Counted from the first letter of the stretch, positions 2,325 through 61,635 are shown. The stretch is DNA of 64,000 nt from Candidatus Marinacidobacterales bacterium (GCA_965219415.1 CBDCNP010000001.1:32001-96000); one strand, 5' to 3'. Numbers and translations: made by a program. The notes: a model not told the origin generated them from the sequence alone.

Positions 2325-2728
2325 CAAGTACCTCCACTACGATCCCGGGCGCATGACAGATGTGATCTCGCCATGACCATTACCTCGGGTTGTGTACGTC
2401 AAATTGTGCAGAAGCAGATTCATGGGTGCTTGCTCCATTTACTGTTGCGGGCTCGTCCACGTCGTCGTGCGAGGACGGCACTTATGCACAGCTTGGCGCA
2501 AGCTGAAGCCCGGTGATATTAGAATCTGATGTAACCTACTGCAATACAAAATCTTCCCCTTATGCGTCCCCGGCGCGTGGGTCTTGAGTATGTTTGTGTT
2601 TTTGGACACGACGCGATCGGCAAGTTGGTCGATGGAGATGTTGGTGTGTAGCCCTCGACCGCGCGAGCCGCTTCTCCCACACGTAGAAAAAGCTTCGAAC
2701 CAGGGACATCGACGAAATGCGGAGATGG

Positions 2729-3181
2729 CTAGTCGGTGCCGGACGCCTCGCTGTAGTCGCGGAGCATCTTCTTGAGCTCCATCTGGTGAAGCTCCTCTTG
2801 CCCGACCATGGTGCGCGCGAACTCCTCTAGGTAGATACTGGAATTCTCTACCGCTTCGAGGAGCTCGATATAGAGCTTCACAGCGTTTTTTTCGTGGTTC
2901 ACGCTTTCCTGGAGAATCGCTTTGAGCGAATGCTGAAAGGTCTCCTTGAGAGGTGCCACACTGAGCGATGGGTGGCCACCAAGGCCGGTCAGAATCTCAC
3001 CCACCTGTTGAGCATGGTCCAAGGACTCGGACGCCTGTGCCTTCATGAATTCCACGATCGGCAGCCGATTGGGGCCGGTCACCATGAGCGCATAATGCGT
3101 GTAGCGAACAACCCCCGCGAGCTCCTGCTCCAAGATCGTATTTAGTATTTTGACAGTCTTTTCGGTGTCGAGCTTTTCCAT
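2729..3181 (-). CDS. bacterioferritin/ferritin-like protein
   Basis: MEKLDTEKTVKILNTILEQELAGVVRYTHY..ESLDHA..HEKNA..EELHQ di-iron ligands; the longer track ORF runs into a transposon end. Confidence 0.85.
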   Translation of the reverse strand: MEKLDTEKTVKILNTILEQELAGVVRYTHYALMVTGPNRLPIVEFMKAQASESLDHAQQVGEILTGLGGHPSLSVAPLKETFQHSLKAILQESVNHEKNAVKLYIELLEAVENSSIYLEEFARTMVGQEELHQMELKKMLRDYSEASGTD

Positions 3182-3213
3182 ACCCGCGCATTCTATCAAG
3201 TCCGGGGTCTTCC

Positions 3214-3426
3214 CGTCGTATCCGAAAACGCGAACGGAGCCGAAAGCTCGAATCCTGGAGGTGTTCTCGGAATTCGCGGAGACCAGCCGACGCAGCACTG
3301 GCGCTGCGATAGGCGACCCCGAGCAGATCTCTCCTCCAGACCATCCGTCCCGTCCAGCTTGCGTGCACGAACTCCTATGCGGCAGCGCGTGGGTCTTAGA
3401 GTTCGTTTGTATTCTTGGACACGACG
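3214..3426. mobile_element. 213-bp non-autonomous derivative of family-B rve element
   Basis: Inverted ends CGTCGTATCCGAAAAC and GTATTCTTGGACACGACG; contains transposase stop region (R-A-A-A-stop) also seen near 46000 and 49960. Confidence 0.75.
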
Positions 3427-59276: not shown

Positions 59277-59806
59277 CCCGACGGATAGAGGCGTTAAGAT
59301 CTACACAGGGGTTTCCCCGCGCACTTGGAAGCGCACCAAGGTCAGCAGTCTGGTCGCAGCTCCGACGACAACCCAGGAACTCAGGGACGACGACTCCTCG
59401 ACCCTCAGCCACGCGGCCAGTGTCGCGGCAGCCAGCCCGAAGGCAATGCCGTGAGCCATGCCGGGCTGTACGCGGTATGATGCTCGGTGCCGACCTCTCC
59501 GCATCATCGACAGGTCCCATTCCAGAGTCCGCATCCGAACTCGTCGAGTCGGTCTATGGAGGAACGGTGAAATGGTACTGCGATGGGCTGCCCGCAGGAA
59601 ACGCTAGAGAGAGAACCTTACTGTGCTTAAGGCGGAGTTGCGAGCTAAGATGTTCCAGCTCGATCCTGACTGGGCCAAAGTGGAGGACATTCTGACAGGT
59701 GACTTGTTCGGAGCACTCGACTACCTACCGCGTAATCTGAACCGCCCCGGGCTTTCCGGAGACTGTTTGAGTTGAGTCTCGCTATCTGGGGCGAGCCTTC
59801 CTGCGA

Positions 59807-60573
59807 ACCAATGGATTCTGCCACGGGGAGCGCGGTGCGGTAAGGACCTGCTCGATCCCGAGACCGTCGACGCGAGTGTCGAAGTACGCTCCGTAGGTCT
59901 GGTCTCGATCCCGTACCAAGTACCGAGGCACCGTGTCCCATGGAAAAGCATTGACCATTTGCTGCGCCGTCCACTCAGCAGAAGGATGTTCGGTGACATG
60001 GAAATGAACGATACGGCGACGGTCGTGGCGCATGATTATCGAGAAAGCTCCGCCAAGTATGGGACGGTGGTGTGCGATGACGAACCATATACTTGGAGAC
60101 GGCAGCCTGGGAAATGGAGATGCCCAGCTTCGCCAGCTCGCCATGCACGCGGGGAGCTCCCCAGAGAGGGTTGGCCCTGCTCATGTTCCGTATCAGCTCA
60201 CGTATTTCGGGAGCGACGCTTGGTCGTCCAGGCCTACGCCGTCGGCTCTTCCAAGTCCAATATCGTCTGAACCCACAACGGTGCCAGCGGACGACCGTCT
60301 CAGGTTTCACGATGACGAGGACGCTCTCCAGTCCAGATTCTGCGCAACAGCACCCAAAACCCGCGGTCGACCTTCGAGAGCCGCGGCCGTTTCACGGACC
60401 GGCGGAGGACGGCAAGCTGCTGCCGAAGAGCGACATTCTCGAGAGCCAGCTCGCGACGAGCCTTGAAGGCAGAGATGAGAGCGGGAACCAACGACGAAAT
60501 CATGCCGGCATGGTGCTGGCAGACCGGAGATTAATCAAGTTCGGTGCGCGCGGATGAATAAATAGAAGGCACA
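59807..60573 (-). mobile_element. degenerate second family-C copy
   Basis: Matches 57035-57874 with deletions and frameshifts. Confidence 0.85.
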
Positions 60574-61635
60574 GGGTACCGATCCGTGTGCCACGGGTTC
60601 GGAGCATCGAGGGAGGAGAGATTCCGCTTCGCTGCTACGAGGCGGTGAGCCACGGCGGTGAGGTGAATGATCTTCTGCTGAAACGAGTTCTCTACGGAAT
60701 CTCTTGTCGCAACTACGAGGCGGCAGCGGAAGCGATTCCGGGCGCCATCGGGCTGTCGAGCTCAACGGTGTCCCGAGGGTTCGTGCAAGCGAGCGCTGCG
60801 AAGCTGCGGGAGATGCAGGAACGGGATCTGACCGGCGAGGATGTGGTGGCGCTGTTTCTGGATGGGAAGACATTCGCCGAGGCAACGATGGTCGTGGCTC
60901 TGGCCATCACGCTTTGCGGGGAAAAACGCTTCTTGGGCTTCGTGGAGACGGACACGGAGAACGCGCAGGTGTTGACGCCGTTCCTGCGTTCACTGCTCGA
61001 GCGGGGACTCGATATCTCCCAGGGTCTGCTGGTGATCATCGACGGCGGCAAGGGTCTCCAAGCGGCAGTCAAGAAGGCATTCCGTAAGCGGGCCCTGATA
61101 CAACGCTGCCAGTGGCACAAACGTGAAAACGTAGTGAGCTACCTGTCCAAGGGCGAGCAGGCGTCATGGCGCAAGCGGCTCCAGTGGGCCTACAACAGGC
61201 CGGAGTACGAAGAGGCCCTCACTGCGCTCGAGCAACTCCACGGTGAGTTAGAAGAGCGGAACCAATCCGCAGCTGGCAGCCTGGAGGAAGGCCTCGAGGA
61301 GACGCTGACGTTGCATCGACTCGGCGTGCACGCGGTGCTGGGCCGTTCGTTCAAGACGACGAACTGCCTTGAGTCCGTCAATGCTCTCGTCGAGGAACGC
61401 TGCGCGAAGGTCGACCACTGGAAGAACTCGAGCCAACGCCAGCGCTGGTTGGCAACGGCGCTCGTAGACATCGAACCGCGCTTGAGGAAGGTGGTGGGCT
61501 ACCGCCATCTTCCCAAGCTTCGCGAAGCTCTCAAGAGGGAACTGAAGATCGAGGCGAAGACATCAACCGTATCGAAGAAGAAGGTCGCTCAAACGTGAGC
61601 CGTGGAGAGTTTCAACTAAGAATGGGCTTGACTCC
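60574..61635 (+). mobile_element. IS256-family element, 5'-truncated by a C end
   Basis: Paralog of 37417-38706; right IR TTTCAACTAAGAATGGGCTTGACTCC. Confidence 0.88.

What the first reader, a model, noticed from the sequence alone, without database searches (positions are those of the whole stretch)
2580..61635. Window-wide patchwork of gene fragments joined by transposon ends: a candidate DNA-capture or shuffling array
Seen: by eye, about 22 A ends, 19 B ends, 12 C ends, 10 D ends and 22 IS1-like ends occur, roughly one terminus per 750 bp. About 40 passenger pieces of 0.1-4 kb come from unrelated genes (TonB receptors, racemase, HNH, Mrr, MazF, MFS, BCCT, STAS, HU, CRISPR) and usually stop exactly at a terminus. 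The other half of the gene does not follow the element, and the full-length A, C and IS1 copies and the five full MITE F copies have no TSD. Known: IS1 and other DDE elements cause adjacent deletions. Inference: iterated one-ended events or end-mediated capture built a linker-and-fragment archive, possibly of DNA from several donors.
Basis: partly seen in the sequence, partly recalled or inferred. Interest (0 to 1): 0.85.

Follow-up and report, generated by a model that had tools for sequence, protein, structure and literature searches.

The report
Transposon-riddled junkyard island, not capture array
This stretch is one of many regions in a marine acidobacterial genome where hundreds of small jumping-gene copies have inserted into, cut and rearranged each other and the genes between them: an extreme but familiar kind of genome decay, not a device for collecting DNA.

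Summary
The repeats are real.

The window is not a special array:
- It ranks between the 90th and 95th percentile of 492 same-size windows of its own 8-Mb genome.
- The same tip families fill islands totalling megabases on contig C3 and are almost absent from contig C1.
- Sister 'Candidatus Marinacidobacterales' MAGs carry the same elements, and even the same passenger pieces, at 94-100% identity.

About half of the 'solo' A ends pair with B, C or E tips into short two-ended MITEs. Of 26 passenger ORFs with a family hit, 14 cover the profile end to end and 6 are fragments.

Where a gene stops at a tip, it faces the element's outer end, and other copies of that gene run on past the break. That is truncation, not capture.

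ISL3, IS3 and IS256 show normal target duplications and empty sites. The IS1-like, IS481-like and IS5 families and their MITEs show none and sit on breakpoints.

Verdict: nested transposition plus IS-mediated deletion and rearrangement in a horizontally shared accessory island.

The parts
3..2327 (-). TonB-dependent receptor gene (CarboxypepD_reg + Plug + barrel); runs off the window start
   Evidence: Pfam
4048..4199 (+). G MITE (about 152-161 nt); second copy at 42218-42377 (-)
   Evidence: 29 full copies, no TSD
4200..4341 (+). One-ended 142-nt fragment of ISA (IS481-like), abutted by the next element's tip
4338..4487 (+). A2 MITE: A tip on the left, E tip on the right (150 nt)
   Evidence: 70 full copies, no TSD
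4488..5415 (+). Multi-copy unit encoding the C-terminal part of an IS481-like transposase (ORF 4560-5264)
6848..7013 (+). C MITE (166 nt, IS1-like TIRs GGTGCTTCCGC); other full copies at 8827-8992 (-), 29023-29188, 51859-52025, 52504-52669; partial copies at 19608-19719 and 31667-31732
   Evidence: 149 full copies in the genome, none on C1
7014..8155 (+). TonB-receptor C-terminal fragment (profile 153-436 of 436), cut at the outer tip of the C MITE
   Evidence: three C3 copies continue upstream of the break
8509..8636 (+). AC MITE (A tip + C-type tip, 128 nt); second copy at 33685-33812 (-)
8993..9350 (+). Two tandem 171-187-nt B-end fragments, tips facing right
9351..10762 (+). Passenger ORF (495 aa, no family) lying between the outer tips of a B end and an A end; same junctions in G002 and on C3
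10766..10997 (-). One-ended fragment of the ISA right end
11251..12361 (-). IS1-like IS copy with an internal deletion (element positions 1-745 and 834-1200)
12362..12967 (+). Asp/Glu racemase fragment (profile 51-209 of 211), cut at the IS1-like outer tip
   Evidence: five C3 copies extend 220-315 nt further
13263..14300 (+). MPAB_Lcp_cat gene, profile 3-222 of 231 (intact)
14534..14658 (+). AB unit (A tip + B tip, 125 nt)
17098..17922 (-). Ion-transport channel gene (intact)
18156..19477 (+). Orphan cas1e-cas2 pair (both full length); no CRISPR array or effector genes in the window
19857..20038 (+). A4 MITE (A tip + E tip, 182 nt); second copy at 33269-33450 (-)
21022..22691 (-). DUF4411 + M78-peptidase gene pair (intact)
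22738..22832 (+). D MITE (95 nt); further copies at 45606-45686 and 52227-52321
23159..24589 (+). Full-length ISA (IS481-like, 1431 bp, about 105-nt TIRs; transposase frameshifted), followed at 24590-24722 by a 142-nt fragment of another ISA
24740..28932 (-). Three intact genes: amidohydrolase, amidohydrolase-2, flavin amine oxidase
   Evidence: unique in the genome
29569..31257 (+). Unit with IS1-like TIRs that encodes an IS110-family (RNA-guided type) transposase (ORF 30125-31201, - strand)
31452..31769 (.). 317-nt composite A..A unit (ISA end fragment + first 66 nt of C MITE + 32-nt A tip), amplified as a unit
32195..33142 (-). TrkA-N potassium channel gene (intact)
35612..36811 (+). Full-length IS1-family IS (1200 bp; transposase ORF 35721-36788, 355 aa)
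   Evidence: 31 full copies, no TSD
37370..38807 (+). IS256-family IS (1438 bp; transposase ORF on the - strand), abutting a 311-nt IS1-like end at 38807-39117 (-)
   Evidence: family shows 7-8-bp overlaps at empty sites
39339..41840 (-). HAMP-SpoIIE phosphatase gene (833 aa, intact); segment 39118-42217 is 100% identical to G003
42983..44425 (+). A4 MITE split by a full IS3 (43089-44346): a simple nested insertion with a 3-4-bp duplication
44720..45508 (+). D-glutamate cyclase gene (intact)
46184..47437 (-). MscS-type channel gene
48926..49955 (-). MFS transporter gene, 3' end cut at the outer tip of a 50-nt A-tip fragment (48876-48925)
51449..51858 (+). N-terminal piece of a TonB-type receptor (CarboxypepD_reg), cut at the C MITE tip at 51859
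52026..52196 (-). 171-nt IS3 end fragment whose broken inner end abuts the C MITE
53205..54294 (+). IS5-family IS (1090 bp, transposase 53273-54238)
   Evidence: no TSD on the same copy in 27 of 29 copies, 9-bp TSD halves split between copies
56084..56419 (-). BCCT transporter shard (profile 239-309 of 485)
56631..57885 (+). IS481-like IS no. 2 (E tips), its right tip interrupted by ISL3
57876..59259 (+). ISL3-family IS (1384 bp)
   Evidence: 8-bp TSD in 30 of 41 genome copies
59792..61634 (.). Fragments of IS481-like no. 2 (59792-60565) and of a diverged IS256 relative (60576-61634, 77% identity)

Best explanation
The window is a piece of an accessory 'junkyard' island in an insertion-sequence-saturated genome. 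The genome is probably a long-read metagenome-assembled one, of the marine acidobacterial order Ca. Marinacidobacterales.

Many IS families and their MITEs have landed in and next to each other: IS1-like, two IS481-like, IS5, IS110, IS256, IS3 and ISL3. Two processes then acted.

(1) Ordinary nested insertion. This is shown for IS3, ISL3 and IS256, which keep 3-4-bp or 7-8-bp duplications and have intact empty sites elsewhere.

(2) Deletion, inversion and exchange events that begin exactly at element tips or run between element copies. They removed one flank of nearly every IS1-like, IS481-like and IS5 element and MITE. Genes therefore stop at outer tips, and the missing half does not follow the element.

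Shown: the truncations, the absence of TSDs and empty sites for these families, and the 9-bp IS5 duplications split between different copies.

Inferred: that the tip-precise breaks come from transposase-mediated intramolecular events (adjacent deletion or inversion, cointegrate formation) together with homologous recombination between copies.

The island DNA as a whole, elements plus cargo, is shared between species at up to 100% identity. Much of the mosaic was therefore probably built in a horizontally moving pool rather than in this chromosome.
For: Genome-wide pattern:
- Share of 20-mers present 5 times or more: C1 6.6%, C2 14.1%, C3 13.1%; the window has 29%.
- A tips: 515 in the genome, of which 1 on C1, 35 on C2 and 479 on C3. 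On C3 they cluster in islands: 1.8, 2.5-2.7, 2.9-3.1, 3.3-3.6, 3.9, 4.1-5.3 and 5.4-5.69 Mb.

Truncation, not capture:
- At 39118, 12362, 7014 and 42217 the other copies (C3, G003) continue through the break with shared sequence.
- At all six junctions examined, the gene faces the outer tip of the element.

Normal transposition by some families:
- ISL3: 8-bp TSD in 30 of 41 copies. IS3: 4-bp TSD in 18 of 36. Controls 0.
- Empty-site paralogues with overlaps of -8 (ISL3), -3/-4 (IS3) and -7/-8 (IS256). These include the window's IS3 inside an A4 MITE.

Breakpoint-bound families:
- Copies with an empty site: C MITE 0 of 149; IS1-like 0 of 31; IS5 0 of 29; A2 one candidate of 70, which I read as spurious (it lies beside the copy itself). 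A4 0 of 37, AC 0 of 40, AB 0 of 12, D 0 of 28, G 0 of 29.
- IS5 TSD halves lie on different copies: 5 pairs against 0 in the control. Three of the pairs are on oppositely oriented copies, two of them 18-22 kb apart, as expected after inversion.
- An IS5 copy and an ISA copy in otherwise clean DNA sit at synteny breaks relative to G001.

Shared mobilome:
- The same elements and passenger pieces occur at 94-100% identity in G001, G002 and G003.
- The IS5 transposase is found at 96-98% amino-acid identity; 403 loci encode a relative, and the 80 loci kept lie in 8 MAG records.

Precedent: in Amoebophilus asiaticus, 83% of full-length IS copies lack direct repeats and 143 copies are truncated (PMC3196728; passages read).
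Against: - Complete loss of TSDs in every one of 149 C MITEs and 70 A2 MITEs is more than random later rearrangement would easily give. ISL3 copies are longer and more alike, so they are better recombination substrates, yet 73% keep their TSD.
- For C MITEs I found no split TSDs between copies above control (16 against 14).
- I found no pairs of copies whose flanks fit together (0 pairs). That test has little power.
- The A2 MITEs are young (median 98% identity) and still lack TSDs.
- So these families may move by a route that never makes a TSD. I could not test that.
- Long-range order of the assembly could not be checked with reads. Only short contigs were available, and they break about 30 nt inside each repeat.
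Confidence: 0.72

Rival explanations
1. Active shuffling by cointegrate or translocatable-unit chemistry. The IS1-like and IS481-like transposases, acting also on their MITEs, would move mainly by replicative or conservative end-targeted reactions, as IS26 does. Circles of 'element + adjacent DNA' would then be excised and re-inserted beside other copies. Segments would be spread without TSDs, building the mosaic as a by-product.
For: - No TSD and no empty site for any of the nine IS1-like or IS481-like families or MITEs tested.
- Passenger pieces occur in 2-7 near-identical copies at scattered sites.
- Tips of different families are joined in all combinations: A-E, A-B, A-C.
- These families are confined to islands where copies of themselves already lie.
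- IS26 behaves this way (PMC4196232, PMC4471558, PMC7986276; search listings and abstract starts only).
Against: - No IS6-family transposase was seen in the window. The linker family is IS1.
- C-type copies lie in mixed orientation, not the direct orientation of IS26 arrays.
- The duplicated passenger pieces have different ends in each copy, and the ends are not bounded by the same element. That fits erosion of older duplications better than unit-wise transfer.
- Many linkers are short MITEs or one-ended stubs.
Confidence: 0.17
2. Assembly artefact. The mosaic would come from wrong joins at repeats in a metagenome assembly, between strains, or between co-occurring species that share identical elements.
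For: - The relatives are MAGs.
- G000 scores 8.45% contamination.
- Island DNA is 100% identical between species whose core DNA is 85-92% alike.
- Contigs C2 and C3 end in a shared 6-10-kb repeat.
- Wrong joins at repeats would also erase TSDs and empty sites.
Against: - The longest and most uniform repeats are the easiest to mis-join: ISL3 (1.4 kb, 99.3%) and IS3 (1.26 kb, 99.8%). They keep correct TSDs and empty sites.
- Several window junctions recur in independently assembled genomes and at other loci of G000. Window 9314-10882 matches G002 at 99%. Window 7013-8475 matches G002 at 97%. Window 9036-10781 matches C3 at 99.4%.
- The islands are embedded in megabase contigs with core DNA on both sides.
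Confidence: 0.06
3. A dedicated, selected DNA-capture or archive system, functionally comparable to an integron or a CRISPR array, that stores fragments between standard linkers.
For: Only the regular look of tips alternating with unrelated pieces.
Against: - No recombinase or site pair specific to the array. The linkers belong to at least five unrelated tip families in mixed order and orientation.
- The stored pieces lie outside the elements.
- More than half of the assignable passengers are whole genes.
- There is no unique locus; the pattern covers megabases.
- The cas1-cas2 pair has no array.
Confidence: 0.02

Closest known systems
IS-saturated genomes 'in transition', e.g. the amoeba symbiont Amoebophilus asiaticus (PMC3196728; passages read)
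   Same: Very high IS load and many truncated copies. Most full-length copies lack direct repeats (there 101 of 122). Genes are broken at element ends.
   Different: Here most of the affected families (all those tested except the G MITE) are confined to islands and absent from a 2-Mb contig (G MITE has 6 of 29 copies on C1). Short MITEs with mixed tips outnumber full IS copies. Three families are demonstrably still inserting normally. Island DNA is shared between species at up to 100% identity.
IS26 / IS6-family mosaic regions built through translocatable units and intramolecular replicative transposition (PMC4196232, PMC4471558, PMC7986276; listings and abstract starts only)
   Same: Unrelated segments bounded by element ends. 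No TSD around individual copies. Genes cut exactly at tips, and the other half is not behind the element.
   Different: The transposase family is IS1 and IS481-like, not IS6. The linkers are often MITEs or stubs, in mixed orientation. The cargo is ordinary housekeeping-type genes, not resistance genes.
IS1-mediated adjacent deletions (classical E. coli genetics; recalled, not looked up here)
   Same: An IS1-family element stands at breaks that begin precisely at its tip.
   Different: E. coli IS1 makes 8-9-bp TSDs on simple insertion (recalled). This single-ORF, 355-aa relative and its 166-nt MITE show none in 31 and 149 copies.
Gene-fragment capture by transposons (Pack-MULEs, Helitrons, ISCR and ISEcp1 one-ended transposition; recalled)
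   Same: Gene fragments are associated with transposon ends and occur in several copies.
   Different: In those systems the fragment lies inside the mobilised unit. Here all six truncated genes examined face the outer side of the tip. Longer copies exist that read through the break.
MITEs
   Same: Units of 95-182 nt with terminal inverted repeats, no ORF, and 12-149 full copies per genome.
   Different: No TSD in any family tested. Several families combine tips of different IS families: A-E, A-B, and A-C (IS481-like tip with IS1-like tip).

Membership tests
IS1 family (the C-type / 'IS1-like' element 35612-36811) | Transposase related to IS1 InsAB' (DDE_Tnp_IS1, N-terminal zinc-binding domain) | tested here: met
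   NCBIfam transpos_IS1 E 2.4e-23 (below the curated cut-off) and IS1_IS1595_Zn. Pfam DDE_Tnp_IS1 E 1.1e-4. 2685 relatives, many carrying PF03400 and named IS1 family transposase by JGI.
IS1 family (the C-type / 'IS1-like' element 35612-36811) | Terminal inverted repeats | tested here: met
   GGTGCTTCCGC... at both ends in 31 of 31 full copies.
IS1 family (the C-type / 'IS1-like' element 35612-36811) | 8-9-bp target-site duplication (recalled as typical of IS1) | tested here: not met
   Best register matches 3 of 31 copies. C MITE: 18 of 149 at k=2 against 8 in the control. No empty sites.
IS481 family (A element, 23159-24589) | rve-type DDE transposase closest to IS481/IS3 models | tested here: inconclusive
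   transpos_IS481 E 4e-14 and 2.6e-8 on the two halves, below cut-off, with IS3 close behind. rve_3 hit. The gene is split by a frameshift in this copy.
IS481 family (A element, 23159-24589) | Target-site duplication of 4-15 bp (recalled) | tested here: not met
   1 of 8 full copies. Flank consensus is ACC|CGTCC...GGACG|GGT, which is inverted, not direct.
MITE | Short, non-coding, TIR-bounded, multi-copy | tested here: met
   Full copies: C 166 nt x149; A2 150 nt x70; A4 182 nt x37; AC 128 nt x40; D 95 nt x28; G 152 nt x29.
MITE | Flanked by a TSD of the parent family's length | tested here: not met
IS26-type translocatable-unit array / pseudo-compound transposon | IS6-family transposase | tested here: not met
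   Only a marginal DDE_Tnp_IS240 hit (E 0.0098) on the IS1-like protein. No IS6 model among the hits.
IS26-type translocatable-unit array / pseudo-compound transposon | Directly oriented identical IS copies alternating with segments | tested here: not met
   C-type copies are +, -, -, +, +, +, +, -, +, + and of different lengths.
IS26-type translocatable-unit array / pseudo-compound transposon | No TSD around individual copies; adjacent deletions at tips | tested here: met
Transposon gene capture (Pack-MULE-like / one-ended transduction) | Captured fragment lies inside the element, between the inner sides of its ends | tested here: not met
   At 7014, 12362, 39118, 42218, 48926 and 51858 the gene faces the outer tip.
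Transposon gene capture (Pack-MULE-like / one-ended transduction) | Copies of the fragment share the element-defined boundaries | tested here: not met
   Racemase, TonB and SpoIIE copies have different ends, and they extend past the window's break.
Integron or CRISPR-type acquisition array | Dedicated integrase/attC or Cas1-Cas2 with a repeat-spacer array | tested here: not met
   No tandem array in the window. No Rfam family. cas1e-cas2 stand alone. Integron integrase was not searched for specifically.
IS-expanded genome / IS graveyard | High copy number of several IS families, many truncated copies, nested insertions, IS-associated rearrangements | tested here: met

The most novel reading that the evidence does not exclude
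A whole guild of elements would spread without ever making a target duplication, and only within megabase 'junkyard' compartments. The guild is an IS1-like IS, two IS481-like ISs, and at least six MITE families that mix their tips (A-E, A-B, A-C). The route would be end-targeted and conservative, for example IS26-like joining to resident copies, or host end-joining of excised elements at breaks. This would continually cut and re-associate the DNA between them. The compartment itself would travel between species and genera of marine Acidobacteriota nearly unchanged.
Probability: 0.15. Interest if true: 0.6.

Novelty: new member of a known kind. Interest (0 to 1): 0.3.

Why it matters
In itself this is an extreme case of a known process. 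It warns that 'arrays' of fragments between transposon ends can arise by decay alone.

Three points may be worth a specialist's time:
1. There is a clean split, within one genome, between families that behave canonically and families that never show a TSD or an empty site.
2. MITEs are built from tips of different IS families.
3. Island DNA is up to 100% identical between MAGs whose core DNA differs by 8-15% (G000 against the same-genus G001) and with G003 of another genus. That points either to very recent exchange in a marine community or to a caveat for long-read MAGs.

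Tried and rejected
- Plasmid database: megablast of window 12900-37000 found nothing.
- Rfam and tRNA scans of the window: nothing.
- Genome-contig scan with the amine oxidase: no relative. It also has no close orthologue in 30 relatives; the best hit is 39%.
- Empty-site search with joined flanks of 63 A..A pairs: two poor hits only.
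- Search for pairs of copies whose left and right flanks abut elsewhere (reciprocal products): 0 pairs for all 8 families, including the positive-control families. The test had little power.
- Read-level check. Only Logan contigs of 4 runs could be laid. They cover all 30 bins but stop about 30 nt inside each repeat. They say nothing on long-range order, and the joints listed are repeat cross-matches.
- An early idea was that the discrete 'truncation classes' of A ends at about 35, 55, 85 and 105 nt meant one-ended copies of fixed length. I rejected it. They are subfamilies (A2, A4, AB and others) that diverge from ISA at those points.
- Another idea was that the IS110-type transposase targets A tips. 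I rejected it. Its 10 full copies have unrelated right flanks, and the unit has its own IS1-like TIRs.
- I suspected the 10.6-kb repeat at the end of C2 to be an rRNA operon. It is not: the only 16S gene is at C3:3675497-3677054.
- Literature: no paper holds 'Marinacidobacterales'. A search on Acidobacteriota/Vicinamibacteria/insertion sequence/sponge gave only community surveys. 'ISMhu11' occurs in none of the 8 papers listed, of 155 that hold either search term.
- G007 (unpublished) was among the 31 genomes.

Full report
WHERE THE WINDOW LIES. The window is G000:C2:32001-96000 in an 8.05-Mb assembly of three contigs: C3 5.69 Mb, C1 2.07 Mb and C2 284 kb, all at 59% GC. The last 6.3 kb of C2 is 99.9% identical, in reverse, to the end of C3. 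The last 10.6 kb of C2 matches an internal C3 site. The repeat is not an rRNA operon. I infer that C2 is a chromosomal piece adjoining C3 rather than a plasmid. Relatives that carry the same IS5 transposase are public records titled 'MAG: Candidatus Marinacidobacterales bacterium'. That order belongs to the Acidobacteriota, class Vicinamibacteria. G001 and G002 are the same genus as G000, and G003 is another genus of the same family.

THE OBSERVATION. 29,665 of 64,000 bases have four or more other copies in the genome. So the repeats are real and dense.

They are not peculiar to this window. Its share of 20-mers present five times or more is 0.29. For the 492 windows of 64 kb in the genome, the median is 0.07, the 90th percentile 0.279, the 95th 0.307 and the maximum 0.432. 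A tips number 515 in the genome: 1 on C1, 35 on C2 and 479 on C3. On C3 they are confined to islands at 1.8, 2.5-2.7, 2.9-3.1, 3.3-3.6, 3.9, 4.1-5.3 and 5.4-5.69 Mb. In those islands, 16-37% of 20-mers occur five or more times per 100-kb bin, and a further 5-39% occur two to four times.

WHAT THE ELEMENTS ARE.
- A is the ~105-nt inverted end of a 1431-bp IS481-like element (23159-24589). It has 11 full copies.
- C is a 166-nt MITE with the TIRs of a 1200-bp IS1-family element (35612-36811). The transposase is 355 aa.
- E tips belong to a second IS481-like IS (56631-57885).
- The window also holds IS256 (37370-38807), IS3 (43089-44346), IS5 (53205-54294) and ISL3 (57876-59259).
- A unit with IS1-like TIRs encodes an IS110-family transposase (29569-31257).

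The 'solo' A ends are over-called. A tips pair with E tips (A2 MITE 150 nt, A4 MITE 182 nt), with a B tip (AB, 125 nt), with a C-type tip (AC, 128 nt), or with each other (a 317-nt composite unit). In all, 11 of the 20 A tips in the window sit in two-ended units. The length classes of A fragments seen are these subfamilies diverging from ISA. About nine A tips are truly one-ended stubs.

THE PASSENGERS. Of 26 passenger ORFs with a family hit:
- 14 cover the profile end to end: ferritin-like, MPAB_Lcp, ion channel, Cas1e, Cas2, DUF4411, M78 peptidase, amidohydrolase, amine oxidase, TrkA channel, HAMP-SpoIIE, D-Glu cyclase, MscS and DoxX.
- 6 are fragments: two TonB-receptor pieces, racemase, MFS, a BCCT shard and a weak HNH hit.
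- 2 run off the window.
- 4 are unclear.

At each truncated gene examined, the gene faces the outer tip of the neighbouring element. The DNA is flanking DNA, not cargo.

Many passenger pieces have 97-99.7% copies on C3. Those copies read through the window's break points. Two C3 copies continue past 39118. Five racemase copies extend 220-315 nt beyond 12362, each to a different end. Three TonB copies continue upstream of 7014. G003 continues past 42217, where the window has a G MITE tip. So the window copies were cut. They were not collected as fragments.

TWO KINDS OF ELEMENT BEHAVIOUR.
Canonical families. ISL3 keeps an exact 8-bp TSD in 30 of 41 full copies. IS3 keeps a 4-bp TSD in 18 of 36; by eye, others have 3 bp. 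Controls are 0. ISL3, IS3 and IS256 also have paralogous empty sites that overlap by 8, 3-4 and 7-8 bp. These include the window's IS3, which is a simple insertion into an A4 MITE. These three families also occur on C1: 17 of 41, 5 of 36 and 13 of 32 copies.

Breakpoint-bound families. The C MITE (149 full copies), the IS1-like IS (31), IS5 (29), A2 (70), A4 (37), AC (40), AB (12), D (28) and G (29) show no TSD above control and no credible empty site; the single A2 candidate lies beside the copy itself and I read it as spurious. Except for G (6 of 29 copies on C1), all are absent from C1.

For IS5 the 9-bp duplications exist but lie on different copies: 5 pairs against 0 in the control. Two of the pairs are on oppositely oriented copies 18-22 kb apart, which is the signature of inversion between copies. 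One IS5 copy and one ISA copy in otherwise clean DNA sit at synteny breaks relative to G001.

For the C and A families I found no split TSDs above control (16 against 14) and no reciprocal flanks (low power). So either every copy has lost a flank to tip-initiated deletion, or these families move without making a TSD. This remains open.

OTHER GENOMES. In G001, G002 and G003 the same IS and MITE families occur at 94-100% identity, and so do passenger pieces:
- 39118-42217 is 100% identical to G003:C3:2465195-2468294.
- 14867-16523 is 98% identical to G003:C2.
- 9314-10882 is 99% identical to G002:C18.
- 7013-8475 is 97% identical to G002:C2.
(only the best 150 rows of each call were listed.)

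In G001 the hits cluster at 6.22-6.33 Mb and at 1-23 kb of a single circular-looking contig. By contrast, core DNA of G000 and G001 is 85-92% identical. The pieces map to scattered sites, not to one collinear ancestral region. Several window junctions recur in these independent assemblies, which argues against a local mis-assembly. The reads available could not test long-range order.

MECHANISM. Shown: nested simple insertions; truncation of genes and of other elements exactly at outer tips; exchange of flanks between IS5 copies; restriction of the TSD-less families to islands; and sharing of island DNA between species.

Inferred: the tip-precise breaks are products of intramolecular transposition (adjacent deletion or inversion), cointegrate formation and recombination between copies. 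IS1 (recalled) and IS26 are known to do this (PMC4196232, PMC4471558, PMC7986276; listings and abstract starts only). A genome with the same symptoms is on record: Amoebophilus asiaticus, where 83% of full-length IS copies lack direct repeats and 143 copies are truncated (PMC3196728; passages read).

VERDICT. The 'capture or shuffling array' reading is not supported. The finding is a striking new example of a known kind of genome decay.

Noticed in passing
window 29569-31257: An IS110-family ('RNA-guided') transposase gene (NCBIfam E 3.4e-90) sits in a unit bounded by IS1-like inverted repeats (GGTGCTTCCGC at both ends). It has 10 full copies with unrelated right flanks. IS110 elements normally lack such TIRs (recalled).
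   Followed up: partly
window 18156-19477: Full-length type I-E cas1 and cas2 stand alone. There is no CRISPR array, no leader-adjacent repeats and no effector genes in the window. A partial C MITE starts 130 nt downstream.
   Followed up: partly
window 39118-42217; L090 (G003:C3); L087 (G000:C3:656300-660700) against G001: Island DNA is 100% identical between G000 and G003 (a different genus). It is also 100% identical between G000 and G001 (1.69 kb), while flanking core DNA of G000 and G001 is 85-92% identical. This means either very recent exchange or a MAG cross-assembly issue.
   Followed up: partly
contig C1 (2.07 Mb) of G000: C1 carries 0-2 hits of each of the A, B, C, D and E tip families, against 39-518 on C3. 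Yet it shares ISL3, IS3 and IS256 copies with C3. G000 scores 8.45% contamination. C1 may have a different history, or come from a different strain.
   Followed up: no
G000:C2:273651-284250, C3:2942743-2953345, C3:5687248-5693529: A 6-10-kb repeat in three copies ends both C2 and C3. It is probably the reason the assembly is not closed. Its content is unknown; it is not rRNA.
   Followed up: partly
window 5506-6003 and 6016-6513: Two 498-nt copies, 89% alike and 510 nt apart, lie inside long ORFs on both strands that match no family. A 93-97% copy is at C3:5157256-5158150.
   Followed up: no
window 9331-10818: A 495-aa ORF with no Pfam or NCBIfam hit is conserved at 99% in G002 and on C3, together with the same flanking B and A tips.
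   Followed up: partly
window 21022-22691: An intact DUF4411 + M78-peptidase (IrrE-like) gene pair, unique in the genome. Its layout resembles a toxin-antitoxin or defence module.
   Followed up: no
window 2401-22400, runs X19, X20, X22, X23: Contig depth differs more than tenfold between single-copy genes, for example about 300 at 9351-10661 against about 10-20 at 17064-18874. The contigs there carry 8-22 differences, so they probably come from the C3 copy or from RNA-like data. The kind of run is not on record.
   Followed up: no
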